Positions 43,835 to 61,307 are shown, numbered from the stretch's first letter. The stretch: 64,000 bases of DNA from an uncultured virus (IMG/VR IMGVR_UViG_3300035698_025391) (IMGVR_UViG_3300035698_025391), one strand, 5' to 3'. Made by a program: numbers and translations. Notes: generated from the letters alone by a model not told the origin.

Positions 43835-43924
43835 GCCGGAATGGCGAAATTGGTATTTCAACGACGTGGCCACACACAACAATATCTTGAACGTTGTCTG
43901 TAGGTTTGAATCCTACTTCCGGCA
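43835..43924 (+). ncRNA. tRNA-like element (Leu-type remnant, no canonical anticodon arm)
   Basis: Acceptor GCCGGAA/TTCCGGC+A, TGGCGAAATTGGTA D-arm start, T-arm GTAGG-TTTGAAT-CCTAC. Confidence 0.7.
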
Positions 43925-46498: not shown

Positions 46499-46541
46499 AA
46501 AATTGCCGGGGTGGTGAAACATAGGTAGACACAAGGGACTT

Positions 46542-47256
46542 AATGAATTGAGCACCTGGATAGGAAACTTCCAGAGTGAATGCGGTTAAATTCGGGGAAA
46601 CCTTAACAGACAATGCTGATGGCAATCCCGAGCTAAACTTTGAACATGTTCTTTCCGCGATAAGTGGAGGTCAAAGCATGACAATTAGGGCAAAGTAGAC
46701 GTAGATTATTGAAACTATTATTCGAATTATTCCCATCAATATGGTCTAGTTCAAGTGGTATAAGCTGCCCAAGCCATTTATCTTGGCGACAGTTACTACA
46801 AAAAGGAAACAACAACCCTTCTTTGAGTAGTCGATTCTTGAGCTTGTAAGATTGTATAGGGAATTTATTAGATAAATAGTCCTCAATAGGTTTTTTAAAG
46901 CCAAACTTTTGTCCTTTATTCCATCCTTGACCACGGAAATGGGAAGAGTCAATTTCAAAATGGAATATGGCTTTTCTAATTACATCGTAGTTGCCTCCAT
47001 AAGGAGCAACCCCGAGCTTTTTTAATGCTTGACGATAGCTGTGTGATGTCTTAACAGCCTCTTTTAGCTGCTCAACGGTATATTTTCGTAATTTCATAAG
47101 AACCTCTGTTTATTGAAAGTGTAGAGACTTGACAGCCGCTACCTAAATCACAATGTGATATGGTAAAGAGAAAGTCCAGACCACAAATGCGTTTTAAATA
47201 TCTCTAACAAAATAGAGGTTAATTAAAGTGTAGCAGTGAAAACTGTAGATGGTAAG
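46542..47256 (+). ncRNA. Group I intron (trnL-UAA type, likely IC3)
   Basis: P1 CTTAA/TTGAG with U-G at splice site, P2 GAAA loop, P3 GCGGTT/AGCCGC, P AAATTCGGGGAAAC, Q GGCAATCCCGAGC, R GTGTAGAGACT, S AAGAGAAAGTCC, terminal G before AAAATCC. Confidence 0.93.
46633..47097 (-). CDS. HNH homing endonuclease, antisense within intron P6
   Basis: CSNC...LELDHIDGNNSNNSFNNLRLLCPNCH; own GAGG SD on the minus strand. Confidence 0.9.
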   Translation of the reverse strand: MKLRKYTVEQLKEAVKTSHSYRQALKKLGVAPYGGNYDVIRKAIFHFEIDSSHFRGQGWNKGQKFGFKKPIEDYLSNKFPIQSYKLKNRLLKEGLLFPFCSNCRQDKWLGQLIPLELDHIDGNNSNNSFNNLRLLCPNCHALTSTYRGKNMFKV

Positions 47257-56261: not shown

Positions 56262-56868
56262 TGACAAATAACAAAAAGCCACTCGGAATGTATCCACTGC
56301 CGCCACCGCCACCCCCGCCAATAAGTTTAAGCGGGAGCCCACAAAAGGAAAAGCCCATGGAAGATGCAAACAGCGTTCATAAAGCATTCGCAGAGGCCAT
56401 TCGGGCCTCTAGATCTACCAGTCGAACTTCTCACAGGCTACTCATCGTAATGGCCGGGCTTACTGGCATTCCATGGGAAAGAGTCAAGATGCTCAAACTC
56501 GACTGGAAAGTTCTGGAGCTAAACGATGAAGAGCTTTCGGTACCAGTCATAAATGTAATGATGCATGACGGTACCGGTGGGACAATTTCAGATGAGCCCG
56601 AAGTTCCCAAACCTGCCGGACCAATCACCGATAATGATCGCGGCCCTGGATGATAAATAAGGAGAATGGATCATTGAAGGTTATTATTATCGTCAAGAGC
56701 TGCGGTGAATGCCCCTATAAAAAGGATAATGACGGTATGGGTCATGGCGGATCTTTCGTCAAGTGTGAGAAATTTAACATTATGCTCAGGGATGAAGACG
56801 GACCTGAACATTTTGATTTGAGTAAAATTCATCCCAAATGCAAGTTTCCAAAAAGGTATTAGCAAACT

Positions 56869-56956
56869 GCCAGAGTGGCGAAACTAGGTATACGCGTAAG
56901 ACTTAGGATCTTATGAGCCTCGGCTCGTGGGGGTTCGATTCCCCCCTCTGGCACCA
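56869..56956 (+). tRNA. trnL-UAG: tRNA-Leu(UAG)
   Basis: Anticodon arm TAAGA-CTTAGGA-TCTTA, long variable arm, CCA. Confidence 0.96.
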
Positions 56957-56960
56957 ATTA

Positions 56961-57024
56961 GGAAGGTATGATAGTGTCTAGGGCGACGGCTGAAGGACAC
57001 GTAGGTTTAACTCCTACCCTTCCA
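56961..57024 (+). ncRNA. Minimal tRNA-like element without D arm
   Basis: GGAAGG/CCTTCC+A acceptor-like stem, GTAGG-TTTAACT-CCTAC T-arm, GTGTC/GACAC hairpin; 4 nt after tRNA-Leu(UAG). Confidence 0.6.
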
Positions 57025-57436
57025 TAACACAAAAGGAGAGGATGGAATTAGCATGAATAAAACGGAGTTGAAAAGGTCCCTCTTTGGGGGCATCAGCCTC
57101 GTCATGCAGAAGAATGGGGCATTTGCCTGGGTTACTTTTGAGGAAATTGCTTCATACTACGAAGACGGTTTTACACTACTCAACGATGACAAACACACTC
57201 TTTACAAAAGGCGAGGAAAAGATGGCAATCGGCGAGAAGTATGAAAGTCTTGAAGAATTAGCTGAATCTTTGCGTACATTACCAATCAATTGGCATCGTG
57301 TCAGAGAATTGGGCATCGTATGGGCCAGACACCAGACACATTTTGACGAAGACAATCGGGCCGTGGCTAAAGTGTTTCCAAATGTTCGCATAGTCTTTCA
57401 CGATCCCCCTCACTAATCCTCCACGGACGAATAATA

Positions 57437-57694
57437 ATGTATATCCACAACTTTATTTCCCCCAATATCGATGAAAAGGATTTAGAACTCTTCTTTGGTC
57501 CCCTCATCTCTGACGATAGTTTCGTCACAATCCAACCGAATTGGCTAATGGCTCACATAACATATCGGGCCGGTCTGTTCCAGTCTATATCACAGGCCAG
57601 GAAAAACGGGTGGAACAAACCGATTCCGTCCGGTTTCAGTGAGCATATTATTGGCAAAAAAAGAATTCATGTATACATTTTCAATTTACTATGA
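57437..57694 (+). CDS. Small S4-like RNA-binding protein (TyrRS C-terminal-like)
   Basis: AGLFQSISQARK.G...IGKKR resembles GL..S.SEARR...GKK. Confidence 0.55.
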   Translation: MYIHNFISPNIDEKDLELFFGPLISDDSFVTIQPNWLMAHITYRAGLFQSISQARKNGWNKPIPSGFSEHIIGKKRIHVYIFNLL

Positions 57695-58379
57695 GGGGAG
57701 GGGGAAATGACACTTTTGTTACCATGGACTGGTTTGTCAGAAATTGAATGTAGCTTGATAGATTACAAAATCAAAACGTTTCCAAATGGATTTGACCATG
57801 AAGTGCCAGGGGAGAGATTTTCTGCTCTGAAGCTCCATCTGAACAGTCTTGGTCTATTTTGGTATAGGGTAACTACCTGGAGTGAAAAGAGTGTATGCTT
57901 CAGCGTTTGTACAACATATGATCTTCTTCAGAGAAGGGAACGCTACCGATGAATCAAATGACAAGGAGAATTGCTATGACATCACTGTTCAAACCAGAGA
58001 CTCGTGCAAAACTGCTCAAAGAGATCAGATCAAAAGGTTCCGGAACCCATTATATGGTATTAACCGACCAGGCGGAAAGCCTTCGGTCAGCAATTTCTGA
58101 AGTGGGCTTGGTGGTGAAAGAACAAGACCAACTGGGGGCACAAATCGTCAGAATTACCCGTAGAAACGCTAATTGGAAAGAGCGATTTGCAGCTTTGGTG
58201 GAATTCTTCACTCCTGGTGAGGATGGTGAAATGTTGGTATGGCGAGGCACCAAAGTGCCCCTACAGGCCCATAATGAATTCGTCAAACAATGTCAAGTCC
58301 TCATTGACGGCGATGACGTTGGCAACACCGAAGGCCGATATCCGGTGGTGGTTATCTCGGCAATGTCGTAATCAAGATC

Positions 58380-58548
58380 GGAGCGGTGGCGGAGTAAGCA
58401 GTGGAGATAAGAACTCCAGTTAAAAAAATATTGCTCGGTATACGCTGGCCAACAGCACCAGAGTGACCCTTTCCGGAGAGGGACTGCCCGCCGTGAACTT
58501 CAGCGGCAAATTTCACTCATGCAGGTTCGAATCCTGTCCGCTCCACCA
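58380..58548 (+). ncRNA. 169-nt expanded tRNA-like RNA with CCA end
   Basis: Perfect acceptor GGAGCGG/CCGCTCC+ACCA, canonical T-arm GCAGG-TTCGAAT-CCTGT, Leu-type TGGCGGA..GGTATACGC D-arm with insertions. Confidence 0.85.
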
Positions 58549-58761
58549 GTTTTAACAATAAGGTAGTGGTATTACTATGACGAAATATAATCATGCATAC
58601 GATATAGCATTTGAGGTTATTAGTGAGGACCCTAAAGATGCGACAAAGGAACAAATTTTTGCTGGTCTATTAAGAAGAACGACGGACCTACTTCAAAATG
58701 GGGATGAGCTATTGGAAGCAGTAGGTATGCCATCCGACACTTACGAGATTGAGGAGAAAAC

Positions 58762-60078
58762 ATGATCAAAATTGAAGCCGGACAGGTATTACTCTTGGAC
58801 ACCGGCAAAGGGATGAGAAAGTTCACAGCAGGTTCACCAATCGTTATCTTTTCAAACGAAGTCGAAGATGGGGCTATGATACAGCTACTAGACGCTTCCA
58901 ATCACCCCTGTCTTTTTAAACATCCTGCGGCTATGCCTGATGTTCACAAGGGCTACGGTCTGCCCATTGGGGGCGTCGTAGCCTTCCACGATGGAGTCAG
59001 CCCCTATTGTGTAGGTAAGGATAAGGGTTGTGGCATGCACTTCGTCCTGCTCAACTACAAATGGGAGAATATCACCACAGATCAGATCATACTTATCAGA
59101 CAGCTAATTCGGAAGGCCATTCCGATGGGAATGGGCAAAGTCCATGAGCTACGACAGGCCTGGAACGGTTTTTCTGATTACCTAAACAGCTTCCGTGCCA
59201 GTCCTGCGGCCCAGGGGCCGGAGCTTATCGACACAAAGAAGTGGAACTGGGTCCACCGTAGTTTGGGTACACTGGGTGGGGGAAACCATTTCGTAGAACT
59301 CCAGGCGGCTTCCAATGGCGGCCTTGGAGCTATGATTCATTCAGGTTCGAGGAACTTGGGCGAAATGTTCTGTACTCACCATCATGGAATTGCCTTGGAA
59401 CACAACAAGCGATGGAAGACCAACCTGCCTTCCGAAAATCTCGCATTCCTTCCCACCGGTACCCGACTATGTGAGGATTATATACGTGACATGAACTTCG
59501 CCCTGGCCTTTGCTCGCGAAAGTCGTACTCGTATGATGAACGTTGTTCTCGAAATCATTGAAAGCGTTGTCGGAAGCTTCAAAGTTGAAAGACGTCATGA
59601 TGTCCACCATAACTACGCCGCCCTGGAGAACCATATGGGCAGCAATGTGTGGATACATCGGAAAGGGGCCACTAGTGCCCGTAAGGACGAGGTAGGCATT
59701 ATTCCTGGTTCTCAAGGATCTGCTTCATACATCGTGCGTGGCACTGGCAACCCAATAGCCTTCATGTCCTGTCCTCACGGAGCTGGACGAGTCTCCAGTC
59801 GTACTGATGCCATCCGATTTCTTGATCCAGAGGCAGAGGCAAAGAAAATGGAGGGCATCGTCTATGATTCTCCCAAGGACACCGTTGTCAAAATTGGTGG
59901 TGAGCAGGTGGTCCGCAAAGACTTGGGTGAAAGTGCTGGAGCCTACAAGGACATCAGCGTTGTCATGGAAAATGCCAAGCCCTTGTGCACTGTGGAGATT
60001 GAGTTACGTCCTCTAGGAAACATCAAGGGAGACGACGATCTTTTTCGTAATAAGAAACTCAAGAAACTTGGACTGTAG
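58762..60078 (+). CDS. rtcB: RNA ligase RtcB
   Basis: MPDVHKGYGLPIG, DKGCG, LGTLGGGNHFVE, IHSGSR, HHNY, HRKGAT, IIPGS, SCPHGAGR, AYKDI. Confidence 0.96.
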   Translation: MIKIEAGQVLLLDTGKGMRKFTAGSPIVIFSNEVEDGAMIQLLDASNHPCLFKHPAAMPDVHKGYGLPIGGVVAFHDGVSPYCVGKDKGCGMHFVLLNYKWENITTDQIILIRQLIRKAIPMGMGKVHELRQAWNGFSDYLNSFRASPAAQGPELIDTKKWNWVHRSLGTLGGGNHFVELQAASNGGLGAMIHSGSRNLGEMFCTHHHGIALEHNKRWKTNLPSENLAFLPTGTRLCEDYIRDMNFALAFARESRTRMMNVVLEIIESVVGSFKVERRHDVHHNYAALENHMGSNVWIHRKGATSARKDEVGIIPGSQGSASYIVRGTGNPIAFMSCPHGAGRVSSRTDAIRFLDPEAEAKKMEGIVYDSPKDTVVKIGGEQVVRKDLGESAGAYKDISVVMENAKPLCTVEIELRPLGNIKGDDDLFRNKKLKKLGL

Positions 60079-61307
60079 GAGGGAGGAACTTATGAAAGAT
60101 AATACGGAATGGCTTTGTAAACCCTGTAACTGGTTTACCTCCGAAAAGGCCCTTAAGCAACTGGAAAAAATGGGTGTTGTCAGCAAGCCTTGGAGTTGTC
60201 CAGAATGTAAGAGAAGATTGACGAAAGAGAAATAGTATGCCATATGCAGATGGATGTTGTATTGGCTGTGGGACGGTACTCGATGCGAGAGATAGAGATC
60301 CTAATGGAGACATGGGATGTGTTTGTGTCCGCTGTCATGCCGAGGAAAAACATGATTTTGATGCGGAACCAGGAGTGAGTTTTGAACGGGATGGTACCGC
60401 TGTGTACGAGGCAGATATCCCACAGCCAAAGACAACTGTAGTCTGTGAAATAACCGTTCTAGAAGGACTAATCTCCAAGCTTGGTGATTTCGGTGAGGAA
60501 TTTGATGAGGAGCAAGACGCTGAAACTTTCTGGGCCGCTATTAACCATACAACTAGTACTCTTACAAAGGTGCTTGAGGGGGGGGGCTGATATGTCAGAA
60601 ACAAGTGCGGTAGGTATCGAGAGGCTCAAAAAAGAGCTAGGTACCAGCCTGTTAAGTCTTAAAGATGAAGCTACCTACTCATACGCCGAAGGATGCAATG
60701 GTCCAGGCTATACGGGAAAGGAGTTGAAAGAGAACCCTGGGTTGGTGCATTGGTTATATCTGCCAGGGTTTGAGATACACTTACCGGTGGCCGTACTCTC
60801 TACTGTACTTTGTAAGCTTTACAGAAGAGAGGTGAACGAATGATACAAATTCTTGTATGTTTCACCATTGGTTTCGCAGTCGGCAAGTACTACAAACGTA
60901 AACCAAAACGCAATTTTTGGGACTGGGAGGCTTTGAAGAAAAGGATAAATAACAATACCATATAAACTCTTTCCACACACACACGACGGTGATCAAATCA
61001 GCATCGAATTCGATTGTGAACCTGAGCGTGATGCTTTCCAACGAGCGTTGGAAATTGTGAAACTTGCCATCAACACTAGAAATTGGCAGTGGGAGTCGAG
61101 TCGCCTTTTCGGAGTTATGGTACTTACCAATGGTGTGGTCTTTACTACTACACTTCAAAAAGAAATGGCCGAGAAGATGGTCAATGAAATCCGTAAGATC
61201 ACCGGACTCACAGTCGCCAATTTCTGGAGTAAAGACAGCAGTACATTATTGCGGGCACCAACTCAAAGTGAGCGGGACAAATTCATTAATAAAAAGGAAA
61301 CCGTAAA

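What the first reader, a model, noticed from the sequence alone, without database searches (positions are those of the whole stretch)
58380..58548. 169-nt CCA-ending tRNA-shaped RNA with hairpin-expanded D-loop and branched variable region, upstream of rtcB
Seen: a perfect 7-bp acceptor (GGAGCGG/CCGCTCC), A73+CCA, a textbook T-arm, and D-arm ends matching this phage's tRNA-Leu genes (TGGCGGA...GGTATACGC). The D-loop holds about 40 extra nt (GAGTAA/TTGCTC enclosing TGGAG-ATAAGAA-CTCCA, a 5-bp stem with a 7-nt loop centred on AAG, i.e. anticodon-arm shaped). The normal anticodon position has only a weak CTGG/CCAG stem without U33. The variable region is a GAGTGA/TCACTC stem carrying two further hairpins. 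Paired stems throughout argue for selection, not decay. Known: LeuRS relies mainly on A73 and the elbow rather than the anticodon, and T4 encodes stable tRNA-ended RNAs of unclear function in its tRNA cluster. Inference: a processed, possibly leucylatable, non-decoding RNA acting as a nuclease decoy, an RtcB partner/substrate, or a precursor spliced by cleavage and ligation.
Basis: partly seen in the sequence, partly recalled or inferred. Interest (0 to 1): 0.88.

Follow-up and report, generated by a model that had tools for sequence, protein, structure and literature searches.

The report
Oversized tRNA-like RNA gene in phage
A salt-lake phage carries a 169-base gene that keeps the top half of a leucine tRNA but has extra hairpins where the decoding part should be, so it is probably a non-decoding tRNA-like RNA like the unexplained small RNAs of phage T4, though a decaying tRNA gene is not excluded.

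Summary
Window 58380-58548 (+) has a perfect 7-bp acceptor stem, a canonical T-arm, A73-CCA and tRNA-Leu-type D-arm ends. It fills a 205-nt gap between two ORFs, 214 nt upstream of a Pfam-confirmed rtcB. This frame is not chance: it was one of 5 hits in the window, against a mean of 0.15 hits in shuffled copies and none with NCCA. ARAGORN and Rfam do not call it, and there is no canonical anticodon arm at the normal position. The inserts fold only modestly better than shuffles (6 of 200 and 12 of 200).

I found no homologue in any collection, so covariation could not be tested. The closest rtcB relative with upstream sequence (60% identity) lacks the element.

The same phage has two more aberrant tRNA-like elements. 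Two unrelated phage lineages carry insertion-bearing tRNA genes just upstream of rtcB.

Best reading (0.45): a tRNA-Leu-derived, non-decoding RNA processed like a tRNA, comparable to T4 RNAC, perhaps serving tRNA-damage counter-defence. Main rival (0.30): a decaying tRNA gene. A spliced precursor is unlikely, because no excision I tried restores a tRNA. It is a new variant of a known but unexplained kind.

The parts
58380..58548 (+). Whole 169-nt tRNA-like RNA gene, including the encoded A73-CCA
   Evidence: Sequence and fold. It is the only non-tRNA hit of the strict scan. ARAGORN does not call it, nor does Rfam.
58380..58386 (+). Acceptor stem, 5' strand (GGAGCGG)
   Evidence: Pairs 7 of 7 with 58538-58544. 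Pair probability is 0.91-1.0.
58389..58391 (+). D-stem 5' strand (GCG), preceded by T8-G9
   Evidence: Identical to the phage's tRNA-Leu genes. Its partner is CGC at 58443-58445. The thermodynamic model does not favour this stem (probability 0.0).
58392..58436 (+). 45-nt insert in the D-loop: 6-bp stem, A-rich internal loop and inner hairpin
   Evidence: Alone it folds at -8.5 kcal/mol, z = -2.31, and 6 of 200 shuffles fold as well. Stem probability is 0.59-0.64.
58402..58418 (+). Anticodon-arm-shaped hairpin: 5-bp stem and 7-nt loop AUAAGAA (U at loop position 2, AAG at the centre, A after it)
   Evidence: Sequence. Pair probability is 0.76-1.0.
58437..58442 (+). GGTATA, the retained 3' part of the D-loop with the G18-G19 equivalents
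   Evidence: Identical to tRNA-Leu(tag) of the same window.
58446..58460 (+). Collapsed anticodon-arm position: 15 nt where 17 are needed, with no 5-bp stem or 7-nt loop
   Evidence: Sequence. Only CTGG/CCAG or GCUG/CAGC 4-bp stems are possible, and both borrow D-stem bases.
58461..58518 (+). Branched variable arm: 6-bp stem carrying two hairpins
   Evidence: Alone it folds at -19.6 kcal/mol, z = -1.82, and 12 of 200 shuffles fold as well.
58521..58537 (+). T-arm GCAGG-TTCGAAT-CCTGT
   Evidence: Pair probability is 0.87-0.99.
58538..58548 (+). Acceptor 3' strand CCGCTCC, then A73 and CCA
   Evidence: Sequence.
57949..58371 (+). Upstream ORF (140 aa, no family). Its stop codon lies 8 nt before the RNA.
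   Evidence: ORF list. No family in Pfam or PHROGs. The protein atlas gave only leads below its bar.
58577..58765 (+). Small acidic ORF (62 aa, no family) between the RNA and rtcB. It starts 28 nt after the CCA.
58762..60078 (+). rtcB (438 aa), RNA 3'-phosphate / 2',3'-cyclic-phosphate ligase family
   Evidence: Pfam RtcB, E = 1.8e-90, covering profile positions 1-426 of 426. H339-G340-A341-G342-R343 is invariant in the 9-sequence alignment.

Best explanation
This is a real RNA gene derived from a class II (leucine-type) tRNA gene of the phage. It no longer decodes.

Shown: the 'top half' is intact. That means the acceptor stem, T-arm, G18-G19 equivalents, D-stem bases, A73 and CCA. The 'bottom half' has been rebuilt. 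The anticodon arm has collapsed, a 45-nt hairpin module sits in the D-loop, and the variable arm is a three-way junction.

Inferred: the RNA is co-transcribed with the flanking + strand genes, because no promoter-like or terminator-like site flanks it. It would then be released by the tRNA machinery, with RNase P at the 5' end and trimming to the encoded CCA at the 3' end. It would accumulate as a stable tRNA-like RNA, as T4 RNAC and RNAD do.

Most likely role (inferred, weakest step): it belongs to the phage's tRNA-supply and tRNA-repair island, which holds three tRNA-Leu genes, tRNA-Gln and RtcB. It would act as a tRNA mimic that occupies or diverts a host factor that recognises the tRNA elbow and acceptor, for example a tRNA-directed defence nuclease. 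It offers no anticodon loop at the normal place to be cut there.
For: - The tRNA frame is far beyond chance: 5 real hits against a mean of 0.15 in 100 shuffles, and none with NCCA.
- There are no mismatches in the 7-bp acceptor, the 5-bp T-stem or the 3-bp D-stem, even though three large rearrangements have occurred elsewhere. This pattern suggests selection on the top half only.
- The gene exactly fills a 205-nt gap in a tightly packed + strand gene array. Its GC content is 0.54 against 0.44 for the window.
- Independent contigs from two salt-lake runs reproduce it with 0 differences (records 3 and 10). It is therefore not an assembly artefact, though one of those runs may be the source sample.
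- The same window has two more elements with an intact top half and an aberrant bottom half. One is at 43835-43924 (Rfam tRNA 34.3 bits, about 28 nt where the anticodon loop should be). The other is a 65-nt mini form at 56960-57026 (z = -3.23).
- Two unrelated phage lineages have insertion-bearing tRNA genes that ARAGORN misses, on the rtcB strand. L083 lies 25 nt upstream. L127 and L131 lie about 370 nt upstream, in a block that also holds an Acb2/Tad1-domain anti-defence gene.
- T4 RNAC has the same design, and papers still describe its role as unknown.
Against: - No homologue was found in any collection, so there is no conservation or covariation evidence.
- L002, the closest rtcB locus with upstream sequence, lacks the element. 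The RNA lies in a 7.3-kb variable segment that is only about 0.9 kb long in L002.
- The inserts are only marginally more stable than shuffles.
- The canonical D-stem is disfavoured by 6.5 kcal/mol in the nearest-neighbour model.
- No expression data exist.
- The decoy role rests only on gene neighbourhood.
Confidence: 0.45

Rival explanations
1. It is a decaying spare tRNA-Leu gene. Insertions hit the D-loop and variable loop, part of the anticodon arm was deleted, and the remnant has no function and has simply not yet been purged.
For: - It is an orphan, with no homologue anywhere.
- It is absent from the nearest rtcB relative and lies in a variable accessory segment.
- The phage already has three working tRNA-Leu genes and at least one other damaged-looking tRNA at 43835-43924.
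- The inserts are only modestly structured.
- An earlier follow-up in this scan (e1-4171730) judged a similar insertion-bearing tRNA near RtcB to be a freshly broken gene.
Against: - All 15 stem pairs of the top half and the CCA are intact, although three large rearrangements have occurred.
- The gene fits its intergenic gap exactly in a compact genome.
- The inserts are not copies of any repeat in the 64-kb window or in the fetched loci.
- The same 'top half kept' pattern appears in three elements of this phage.
Confidence: 0.3
2. It is a cis-acting tRNA-like punctuation element. The top half recruits RNase P and 3' processing enzymes to cut the long + strand transcript. This sets the ends and stability of the flanking mRNAs, including the ORF62-rtcB message. 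The released RNA itself would have no role.
For: - No promoter-like or terminator-like site flanks it. In 56600-60300 the scan found 6 promoter-like sites against 5.5 expected, none adjacent, and 1 terminator-like site on the other strand.
- All three aberrant tRNA-like elements of the window end 10-30 nt before a ribosome-binding site and start codon.
- The 65-nt mini element keeps only the acceptor, the T-arm and one hairpin.
Against: - A minimal acceptor and T-arm would be enough for processing. That leaves 100 nt of extra hairpins and the encoded CCA unexplained.
- In a genome this dense, anything intergenic lies just before an ORF.
Confidence: 0.13
3. It is a precursor that is cut, by a host or phage endonuclease or by self-cleavage, and rejoined by the neighbouring RtcB. 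This would remove the inserts and yield a working tRNA.
For: - It is adjacent to rtcB.
- Two other phage lineages have tRNA genes with 66-nt and 39-nt inserts that ARAGORN's intron option places in or beside the anticodon loop, immediately upstream of rtcB.
- The element at 43835-43924 likewise has an oversized anticodon loop.
Against: - ARAGORN with the intron option finds nothing at its default threshold. At a lowered threshold it gives only a forced tRNA-Cys with a 97-nt 'intron' whose stem does not pair.
- After both inserts are removed, the anticodon position still has 15 nt and no 5-bp stem or 7-nt loop.
- By inspection there is no bulge-helix-bulge motif.
- No ribozyme family matches at E<=10.
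- Peptide deformylase and an L7/L12 domain point to a bacterial host, where no tRNA splicing endonuclease is known (for the domains; the rest is my recall).
Confidence: 0.07
4. It is a divergent member of an already described tRNA-like family: tmRNA, a YrlA/Y RNA, or an archaeal multi-intron tRNA.
For: - L003, an rtcB locus with 48% identity, has a standard tmRNA about 560 nt upstream of rtcB.
- The acceptor 3' end GCTCCACCA resembles Ala/tmRNA-type ends (my recall).
Against: - ARAGORN's tmRNA search finds nothing even at a lowered threshold.
- The 3:70 pair is A:U, not G:U.
- There is no Rfam hit.
- None of the 100 window ORFs scanned with Pfam carries a TROVE/Ro60 domain.
- The RNA ends lie at the acceptor stem, not at a Ro-binding stem.
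- There is no bulge-helix-bulge motif.
Confidence: 0.02

Closest known systems
Phage T4 RNAC (species 1 RNA, 139 nt) and RNAD (species 2 RNA, 119 nt), the small stable RNAs at the end of the T4 tRNA cluster
   Same: - Both are encoded among the tRNA genes of a large phage and are longer than a tRNA.
- RNAC has a canonical T-arm (CCGGG-UUCGAAU-CCCGG) followed by an acceptor-like closing stem, with extra hairpins in place of the decoding half.
- Rfam gives RNAC only a weak tRNA-Sec hit of 17.5 bits, as it does for the candidate at 14.8 bits.
- The roles of RNAC and RNAD are described as unknown in the passages I read (PMC3014915; PMC9697503).
- Both RNAC and the candidate have an unpaired A-rich tract ending in AAAAAUAUUG. 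At 10 nt this could well be chance.
   Different: - There is no sequence homology beyond the T-loop and that 10-mer.
- The candidate is much more tRNA-like. It has a perfect 7-bp acceptor, an encoded A73-CCA, the D-stem and the G18-G19 equivalents. By my pairing of the sequence, the RNAC closing stem has two U-U mismatches, and the annotated RNAC has no encoded CCA.
- The candidate sits next to rtcB. T4 has no rtcB in the annotated 8-kb stretch that I viewed.
Class II tRNA-Leu genes of the same phage (window 45370, 54146, 56869)
   Same: GTGGCGGA and GGTATACGC at the D-arm ends, A73, the encoded CCA, a GAG...CTC-framed variable stem, and the T-loop.
   Different: The acceptor stem sequence is entirely different. 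There is a 45-nt D-loop insert, a branched variable arm about 58 nt long, and no anticodon arm. It scores as a tRNA with neither ARAGORN nor Rfam.
YrlA / bacterial Y RNAs (tRNA-like domain, Ro60/Rsr partner, often in rsr-rtcB operons; Chen et al. 2014, PMC4201824, seen only as a search listing)
   Same: A tRNA mimic that keeps the T-arm and D-loop elbow, lacks a decoding function, and is genomically associated with RtcB.
   Different: - None of the 100 window ORFs scanned with Pfam carries a Ro60/TROVE domain.
- As I recall, the ends of YrlA lie on the Ro-binding stem. Here they form an open acceptor stem with CCA.
- There is no Rfam hit.
Insertion-bearing tRNA genes upstream of rtcB in other viral contigs (L083, 145 nt; L127/L131, 116 nt)
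   Same: - They lie on the same strand as rtcB and close upstream of it.
- They have perfect acceptor stems and T-arms and a large insert.
- Default ARAGORN misses them.
- L083 also has a Leu-type D-arm.
   Different: - They are not homologous to the candidate. The shared 22-mer with L083 is mostly the common T-arm, which ordinary tRNAs in L148 and L092 also carry.
- They still score as tRNA in Rfam, at 35.1 and 40.4 bits.
- They have a single insert in or beside the anticodon loop. The candidate has two inserts elsewhere and no anticodon arm.

Membership tests
tRNA (Rfam RF00005 / ARAGORN cloverleaf) | 7-bp acceptor stem, T-arm with a canonical T-loop, and a discriminator base plus CCA | tested here: met
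   Sequence, pair probabilities, and the strict scan.
tRNA (Rfam RF00005 / ARAGORN cloverleaf) | Anticodon arm (5-bp stem, 7-nt loop with U33) at the canonical position, and an overall model score above threshold | tested here: not met
   ARAGORN does not call it, even with the intron option at the default threshold. There is no RF00005 hit at E<=10 in a 351-nt search. Only 15 nt lie between position 26 and the variable arm.
tmRNA | tRNA-Ala-like domain with G3:U70, plus a tag reading frame and pseudoknots | tested here: not met
   ARAGORN's tmRNA mode finds nothing at a lowered threshold. There is no RF00023 hit. The 3:70 pair is A:U.
YrlA / bacterial Y RNA | An adjacent Ro60 (TROVE) gene and a Ro-binding terminal stem | tested here: not met
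   No TROVE domain in the 15 and 85 window ORFs scanned with Pfam. The termini form an acceptor stem with CCA. There is no Rfam hit.
Archaeal-type intron-containing tRNA (bulge-helix-bulge introns; EndA plus RtcB) | A bulge-helix-bulge motif at each exon-intron junction, and a canonical tRNA after excision | tested here: not met
   By inspection of the fold, no 3-nt/4-bp/3-nt motif flanks either insert. Removing both inserts still leaves no anticodon arm. Bacterial-type genes are present in the window: peptide deformylase at E = 1.9e-35 and an L7/L12 C-terminal domain.
Self-cleaving ribozyme-bounded insert (hammerhead, twister, pistol, hatchet, HDV-like) | A match to a ribozyme covariance model within the inserts | tested here: not met
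   No such family at E<=10 on 58300-58650.
Phage stable tRNA-like RNAs of the T4 RNAC type (a descriptive kind, not a curated family) | Encoded in a phage tRNA region, with a T-arm plus terminal acceptor-like stem, longer than a tRNA, and without a decoding arm | tested here: met
   For the candidate. For T4 RNAC.
Phage stable tRNA-like RNAs of the T4 RNAC type (a descriptive kind, not a curated family) | Accumulates as a discrete stable RNA during infection | not testable with these tools
   No RNA run holds the locus, so no expression data were available.
Phage stable tRNA-like RNAs of the T4 RNAC type (a descriptive kind, not a curated family) | Sequence homology to RNAC or RNAD | tested here: not met
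   blastn-short finds only the 11-nt T-loop and a 10-nt A-rich word.

The most novel reading that the evidence does not exclude
Phages that carry RtcB may run their own cut-and-rejoin pathway for tRNA-shaped genes. On this reading, the insertion-bearing tRNA and tRNA-like genes that sit just upstream of rtcB in three unrelated phage lineages (this window, L083, L127/L131) are substrates whose inserts are excised or rearranged at the RNA level and sealed by RtcB. That would be a bacterial-virus counterpart of archaeal and eukaryal tRNA splicing. The 169-nt RNA would be its most elaborate substrate, or a regulator of it.
Probability: 0.08. Interest if true: 0.9.

Novelty: new variant of a known kind. 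Interest (0 to 1): 0.55.

Why it matters
Phage tRNA clusters have held unexplained tRNA-like RNAs since T4 RNAC and RNAD were sequenced in the 1970s (the date is my recall). The passages I read still describe their roles as unknown.

This element is a cleaner case of the same design. It has a perfect tRNA top half with CCA and a bottom half replaced by new hairpins, and it sits in a tRNA-supply and RNA-repair island. If it is expressed, it offers a defined substrate for asking what such RNAs do. Candidate roles are a decoy for tRNA-directed defence nucleases, a partner of RtcB, or a processing signal.

The finding also shows that standard tRNA finders miss a class of insertion-bearing tRNA genes next to phage rtcB. 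That class could be surveyed systematically.

Tried and rejected
**Homologue searches (all negative)**
- blastn of 401 nt and of 169 nt against 50,697 phage records. The first gave no match. The second matched 663 records, of which 0 cover at least 80% of the query; the best cover 21% or less, over the T-arm and 3' acceptor.
- Exact and one-letter-degenerate patterns in IMG/VR gave 0 hits.
- RtcB as a single query in IMG/VR gave no relatives.
- The RtcB alignment in metagenomes gave 80 loci and in IMG/VR 80 loci at 46% identity or less. blastn of the RNA against all 161 fetched loci returned only T-arm words.
- The 413-aa neighbour-gene alignment in IMG/VR gave none.
- This scan's earlier findings, searched by place and by sequence, gave nothing.

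**Loci and sequences out of reach**
- L001 (61% RtcB identity) starts only 42 nt upstream of rtcB, so it cannot show the RNA.
- No whole genome is held for this window.

**Sequencing runs**
- No RNA holder is listed.
- Laying 4 DNA runs gave only identical low-depth contigs and no variants, so there is no population covariation to read.

**Ideas tested and dropped**
- Mobile-hairpin origin of the inserts: there are no other copies in the window or in the loci.
- Embedded smaller tRNA at 58475-58544, the tRNA-Sec alignment: it would have one acceptor mismatch, no D-arm and a 14-nt loop.
- tmRNA-like tag frame: there is an open frame of 22 codons starting at a GCA, but that is expected by chance about one time in three, and it has no tmRNA features.
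- Antisense targets: the best is a 15-nt, one-mismatch match to the start of ORF 44734 (E = 1.9), and it lies in a paired stem.
- The protein atlas on the upstream 140-aa ORF gave only leads below its bar.

**Literature searches**
I found no description of an expanded tRNA-like RNA linked to phage rtcB, and none of small non-group-I introns in phage tRNA genes. These searches cover open-access full text only.

Full report
**The observation**

It has a perfect 7-bp acceptor stem (GGAGCGG/CCGCTCC), A73-CCA and a T-arm GCAGG-TTCGAAT-CCTGT. T8-G9 is followed by a GCG...CGC D-stem.

The flanks of the D-arm match the phage's own tRNA-Leu genes. GTGGCGGA is shared with Leu(caa) and GGTATACGC with Leu(tag). 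The D-loop carries a 45-nt insert: a 6-bp stem, an A-rich internal loop and a 5-bp hairpin with the 7-nt loop AUAAGAA.

The anticodon position holds only 15 nt and cannot form a 5-bp stem with a 7-nt loop. The variable arm is a 6-bp stem bearing two hairpins.

RNAfold recovers this layout. MFE is -60.1 kcal/mol, z = -2.82, and 0 of 200 shuffles fold as well. Pair probabilities are 0.91-1.0 for the acceptor, 0.87-0.99 for the T-arm and 0.76-1.0 for the AAG hairpin.

**Is it more than chance?**

I ran a strict scan for a 7/7 acceptor, a 5/5 T-stem, a canonical T-loop and T8-R9. It finds five places in the window on both strands: the four ARAGORN tRNAs and this element. One hundred block-shuffled windows give a mean of 0.15 hits, and none is followed by NCCA. 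The tRNA frame is therefore real.

The inserts are less compelling. Folded alone, the D-insert has z = -2.31 (6 of 200 shuffles as good) and the variable insert has z = -1.82 (12 of 200). The nearest-neighbour model also prefers a GCUG/CAGC hairpin over the canonical D-stem, and forcing the D-stem costs 6.5 kcal/mol. This is not decisive, because the same model also fails to draw the D-stem of the genuine tRNA-Leu(tag).

**Setting**

The gene fills a 205-nt gap. It starts 8 nt after the stop codon of a 140-aa ORF and ends 28 nt before a 62-aa ORF. That ORF overlaps the start of rtcB at 58762-60078 (Pfam RtcB, E = 1.8e-90).

Nearly all genes in the window are on the + strand and tightly packed. 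No promoter-like or terminator-like site flanks the RNA, so it is probably cut out of a long transcript.

The window is an accessory region of a large phage. It holds the following:
- PnuC and an NMN adenylyltransferase.
- Peptide deformylase, a SpoU methylase, an L7/L12 domain and an HNH protein.
- Two radical SAM proteins.
- tRNA-Leu(caa), Leu(aag), Leu(tag) and Gln(ttg).

The deformylase, the L7/L12 domain and the Shine-Dalgarno motifs point to a bacterial host. Public runs that hold the sequence are salt-lake metagenomes. Contigs from two of them reproduce the RNA gene with no differences. This rules out an assembly artefact but provides no variation to analyse.

**Known families**

- ARAGORN does not call it. 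It fails with the intron option too, and its tmRNA mode fails at a lowered threshold.
- Rfam gives nothing at gathering thresholds. At E<=10 it gives only a tRNA-Sec alignment of 14.8 bits (gathering score 47) on the 3' 70 nt.
- The 3:70 pair is A:U, so it is not Ala- or tmRNA-like.
- None of the 100 window ORFs scanned with Pfam has a Ro60/TROVE domain. The ends also form an open acceptor stem, so it is not a YrlA-type Y RNA.
- Neither insert is flanked by a bulge-helix-bulge motif, and no ribozyme model matches.

**Relatives**

I found none.
- blastn against 50,697 phage records gave no match with 401 nt. With 169 nt at E<=10 it gave only T-arm and acceptor words (663 records, 0 covering at least 80%).
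- Exact patterns were absent from IMG/VR.
- The RtcB protein has relatives at 56-66% identity. Of these, the metagenome scan returned two loci. L001 (61%) starts 42 nt before rtcB. L002 (60%) has coding sequence directly upstream and no tRNA-like element.
- Synteny shows that the 7.3-kb segment between a conserved 413-aa gene and rtcB in the window is only about 0.9 kb in L002. That segment holds two tRNAs and the candidate, so the RNA lies in a variable accessory block.

**Two findings that bear on the interpretation**

First, the phage has two more elements with an intact top half and an aberrant bottom half.
- Window 43835-43924 scores 34.3 bits as a tRNA (E = 5.8e-6). Its acceptor is 7/7 and its T-arm is good, but about 28 nt sit where the anticodon loop should be.
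- Window 56960-57026 lies 3 nt after tRNA-Leu(tag). It is a 65-nt mini form with a 6-bp acceptor, one hairpin and a T-arm whose stem (GTAGG/CCTAC) is the same as in the first element.

Second, I ran the strict scan on the 161 fetched loci (160 rtcB loci and the T4 locus). It found two further lineages of insertion-bearing tRNA genes that default ARAGORN misses, on the rtcB strand and close upstream.
- L083 is 145 nt long and ends 25 nt before the rtcB start.
- L127/L131 is 116 nt long and lies about 370 nt upstream, followed by a bacterial-type class II tRNA-Tyr.
- Both score as tRNA in Rfam, at 35.1 and 40.4 bits. ARAGORN's intron option models them with 66-nt and 39-nt inserts in or beside the anticodon loop.
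- The L131 block also encodes an Acb2/Tad1-hairpin-domain protein (E = 1.2e-16) and a DNA methylase, so it looks like an anti-defence neighbourhood.

These elements are not homologous to the candidate. The 22-mer shared with L083 is mostly a T-arm that is common in ordinary tRNAs. Exact-pattern searches found no further copies of them. The strict scan also returned three likely false hits far from rtcB (L046, L076, L126). The apparent clustering near rtcB is suggestive, but it was noticed after the fact and has no proper control.

**Closest known thing**

The closest known analogue is phage T4. Its tRNA cluster ends with RNAC (139 nt) and RNAD (119 nt). RNAC has a canonical T-arm followed by an acceptor-like closing stem, long extra hairpins (z = -4.57) and only a weak tRNA-Sec hit in Rfam (17.5 bits). 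That is the same signature as the candidate.

Passages of a 2010 review and a 2022 omics paper describe the roles of RNAC and RNAD as unknown. There is no sequence homology beyond the T-loop and a 10-nt A-rich word.

**Interpretation**

I favour a selected, non-decoding tRNA-like RNA (0.45). Three large rearrangements have occurred without a single mismatch in the 15 stem pairs of the top half or in the CCA. The gene fits its gap exactly. The same design recurs in this phage and in T4. The decoy role in tRNA-damage counter-defence is inferred from the neighbourhood only.

The rivals rank as follows:
- A decaying tRNA gene (0.30). The element is an orphan, it lies in a variable segment, and its inserts are only modestly structured.
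- A cis-acting processing signal (0.13).
- An RtcB-dependent spliced precursor (0.07). No excision I tried restores a cloverleaf.
- A divergent member of a known family (0.02).

Leucylation seems doubtful to me. As I recall the literature, LeuRS is sensitive to D-loop geometry, which is exactly what the insert alters. I did not test this.

Noticed in passing
window 43835-43924 (+): A fifth tRNA-type gene that ARAGORN and the first Rfam pass both missed. It scores 34.3 bits as tRNA (gathering score 29, E = 5.8e-6 in a small search). The acceptor is 7/7 (GCCGGAA/TTCCGGC), the T-arm is GTAGG-TTTGAAT-CCTAC and the 5' part is Leu-like. About 28 nt sit between the CAACG/CGTTG anticodon-stem strands, and there is no encoded CCA.
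   Followed up: partly
window 56960-57026 (+): A 65-nt mini tRNA-like element 3 nt after tRNA-Leu(tag). It has a 6-bp acceptor, one hairpin and a T-arm GTAGG-TTTAACT-CCTAC, whose stem is the same as in the 43835 element. It folds at -24.9 kcal/mol, z = -3.23 (2 of 200 shuffles as good). Rfam gives only tRNA-Sec at 13.4 bits.
   Followed up: partly
window 46531-46904 (+), overlapping ORF 46633-47097 (-): A weak group I intron match (29.3 bits, gathering score 50, E = 3.9e-4) overlaps a minus-strand ORF with HNH endonuclease motifs (HNH_3, E = 1.4e-4). It may be a degenerate intron with a homing endonuclease. I did not identify the host gene.
   Followed up: no
L083 2815-2963 (+); rtcB starts at 2986: A 145-nt tRNA gene with a Leu-type D-arm and a 66-nt insert that ARAGORN's intron option places beside the anticodon. 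It ends 25 nt before rtcB in a 33.5-kb viral contig. Rfam tRNA scores 35.1 bits, and default ARAGORN misses it. The neighbours are a DNA methylase and a Vut_1 transporter.
   Followed up: partly
L127 1265-1384 (+) and L131 2243-2362 (+), identical sequence in contigs from two samples: A 116-nt tRNA gene whose anticodon arm is extended into a long, nearly perfect hairpin (39 extra nt; z = -4.44, 0 of 200 shuffles as good). It is followed by a class II tRNA-Tyr(gta) and then rtcB. An Acb2/Tad1-hairpin-domain gene and a DNA methylase lie just upstream in L131.
   Followed up: partly
L003 2082-2437 (+): A standard tmRNA (Rfam 200.5 bits; tag peptide ADDYTQELALAA) lies about 560 nt upstream of rtcB in an AT-rich phage-like contig whose RtcB is 48% identical to the window's.
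   Followed up: no
L024 1477-1564, L027 1122-1209, L028 2071-2158; L044 3540-3637, L048 1881-1978: Unusually long ARAGORN calls sit near rtcB in metagenome contigs. One is an 88-nt 'tRNA-Cys(gca)' about 1.1-1.8 kb upstream of rtcB. The other is a 98-nt 'tRNA-Leu(caa)' about 140 nt downstream. The first might be a Y-RNA-like tRNA mimic next to an rsr gene, but I did not check.
   Followed up: no
window 58420-58433 and T4 RNAC (L081, minus strand, RNA positions 82-91): Both RNAs have an unpaired A-rich tract ending in AAAAAUAUUG (10 identical bases, E = 0.03 in a two-sequence search). This could be chance or a shared single-strand signal.
   Followed up: no
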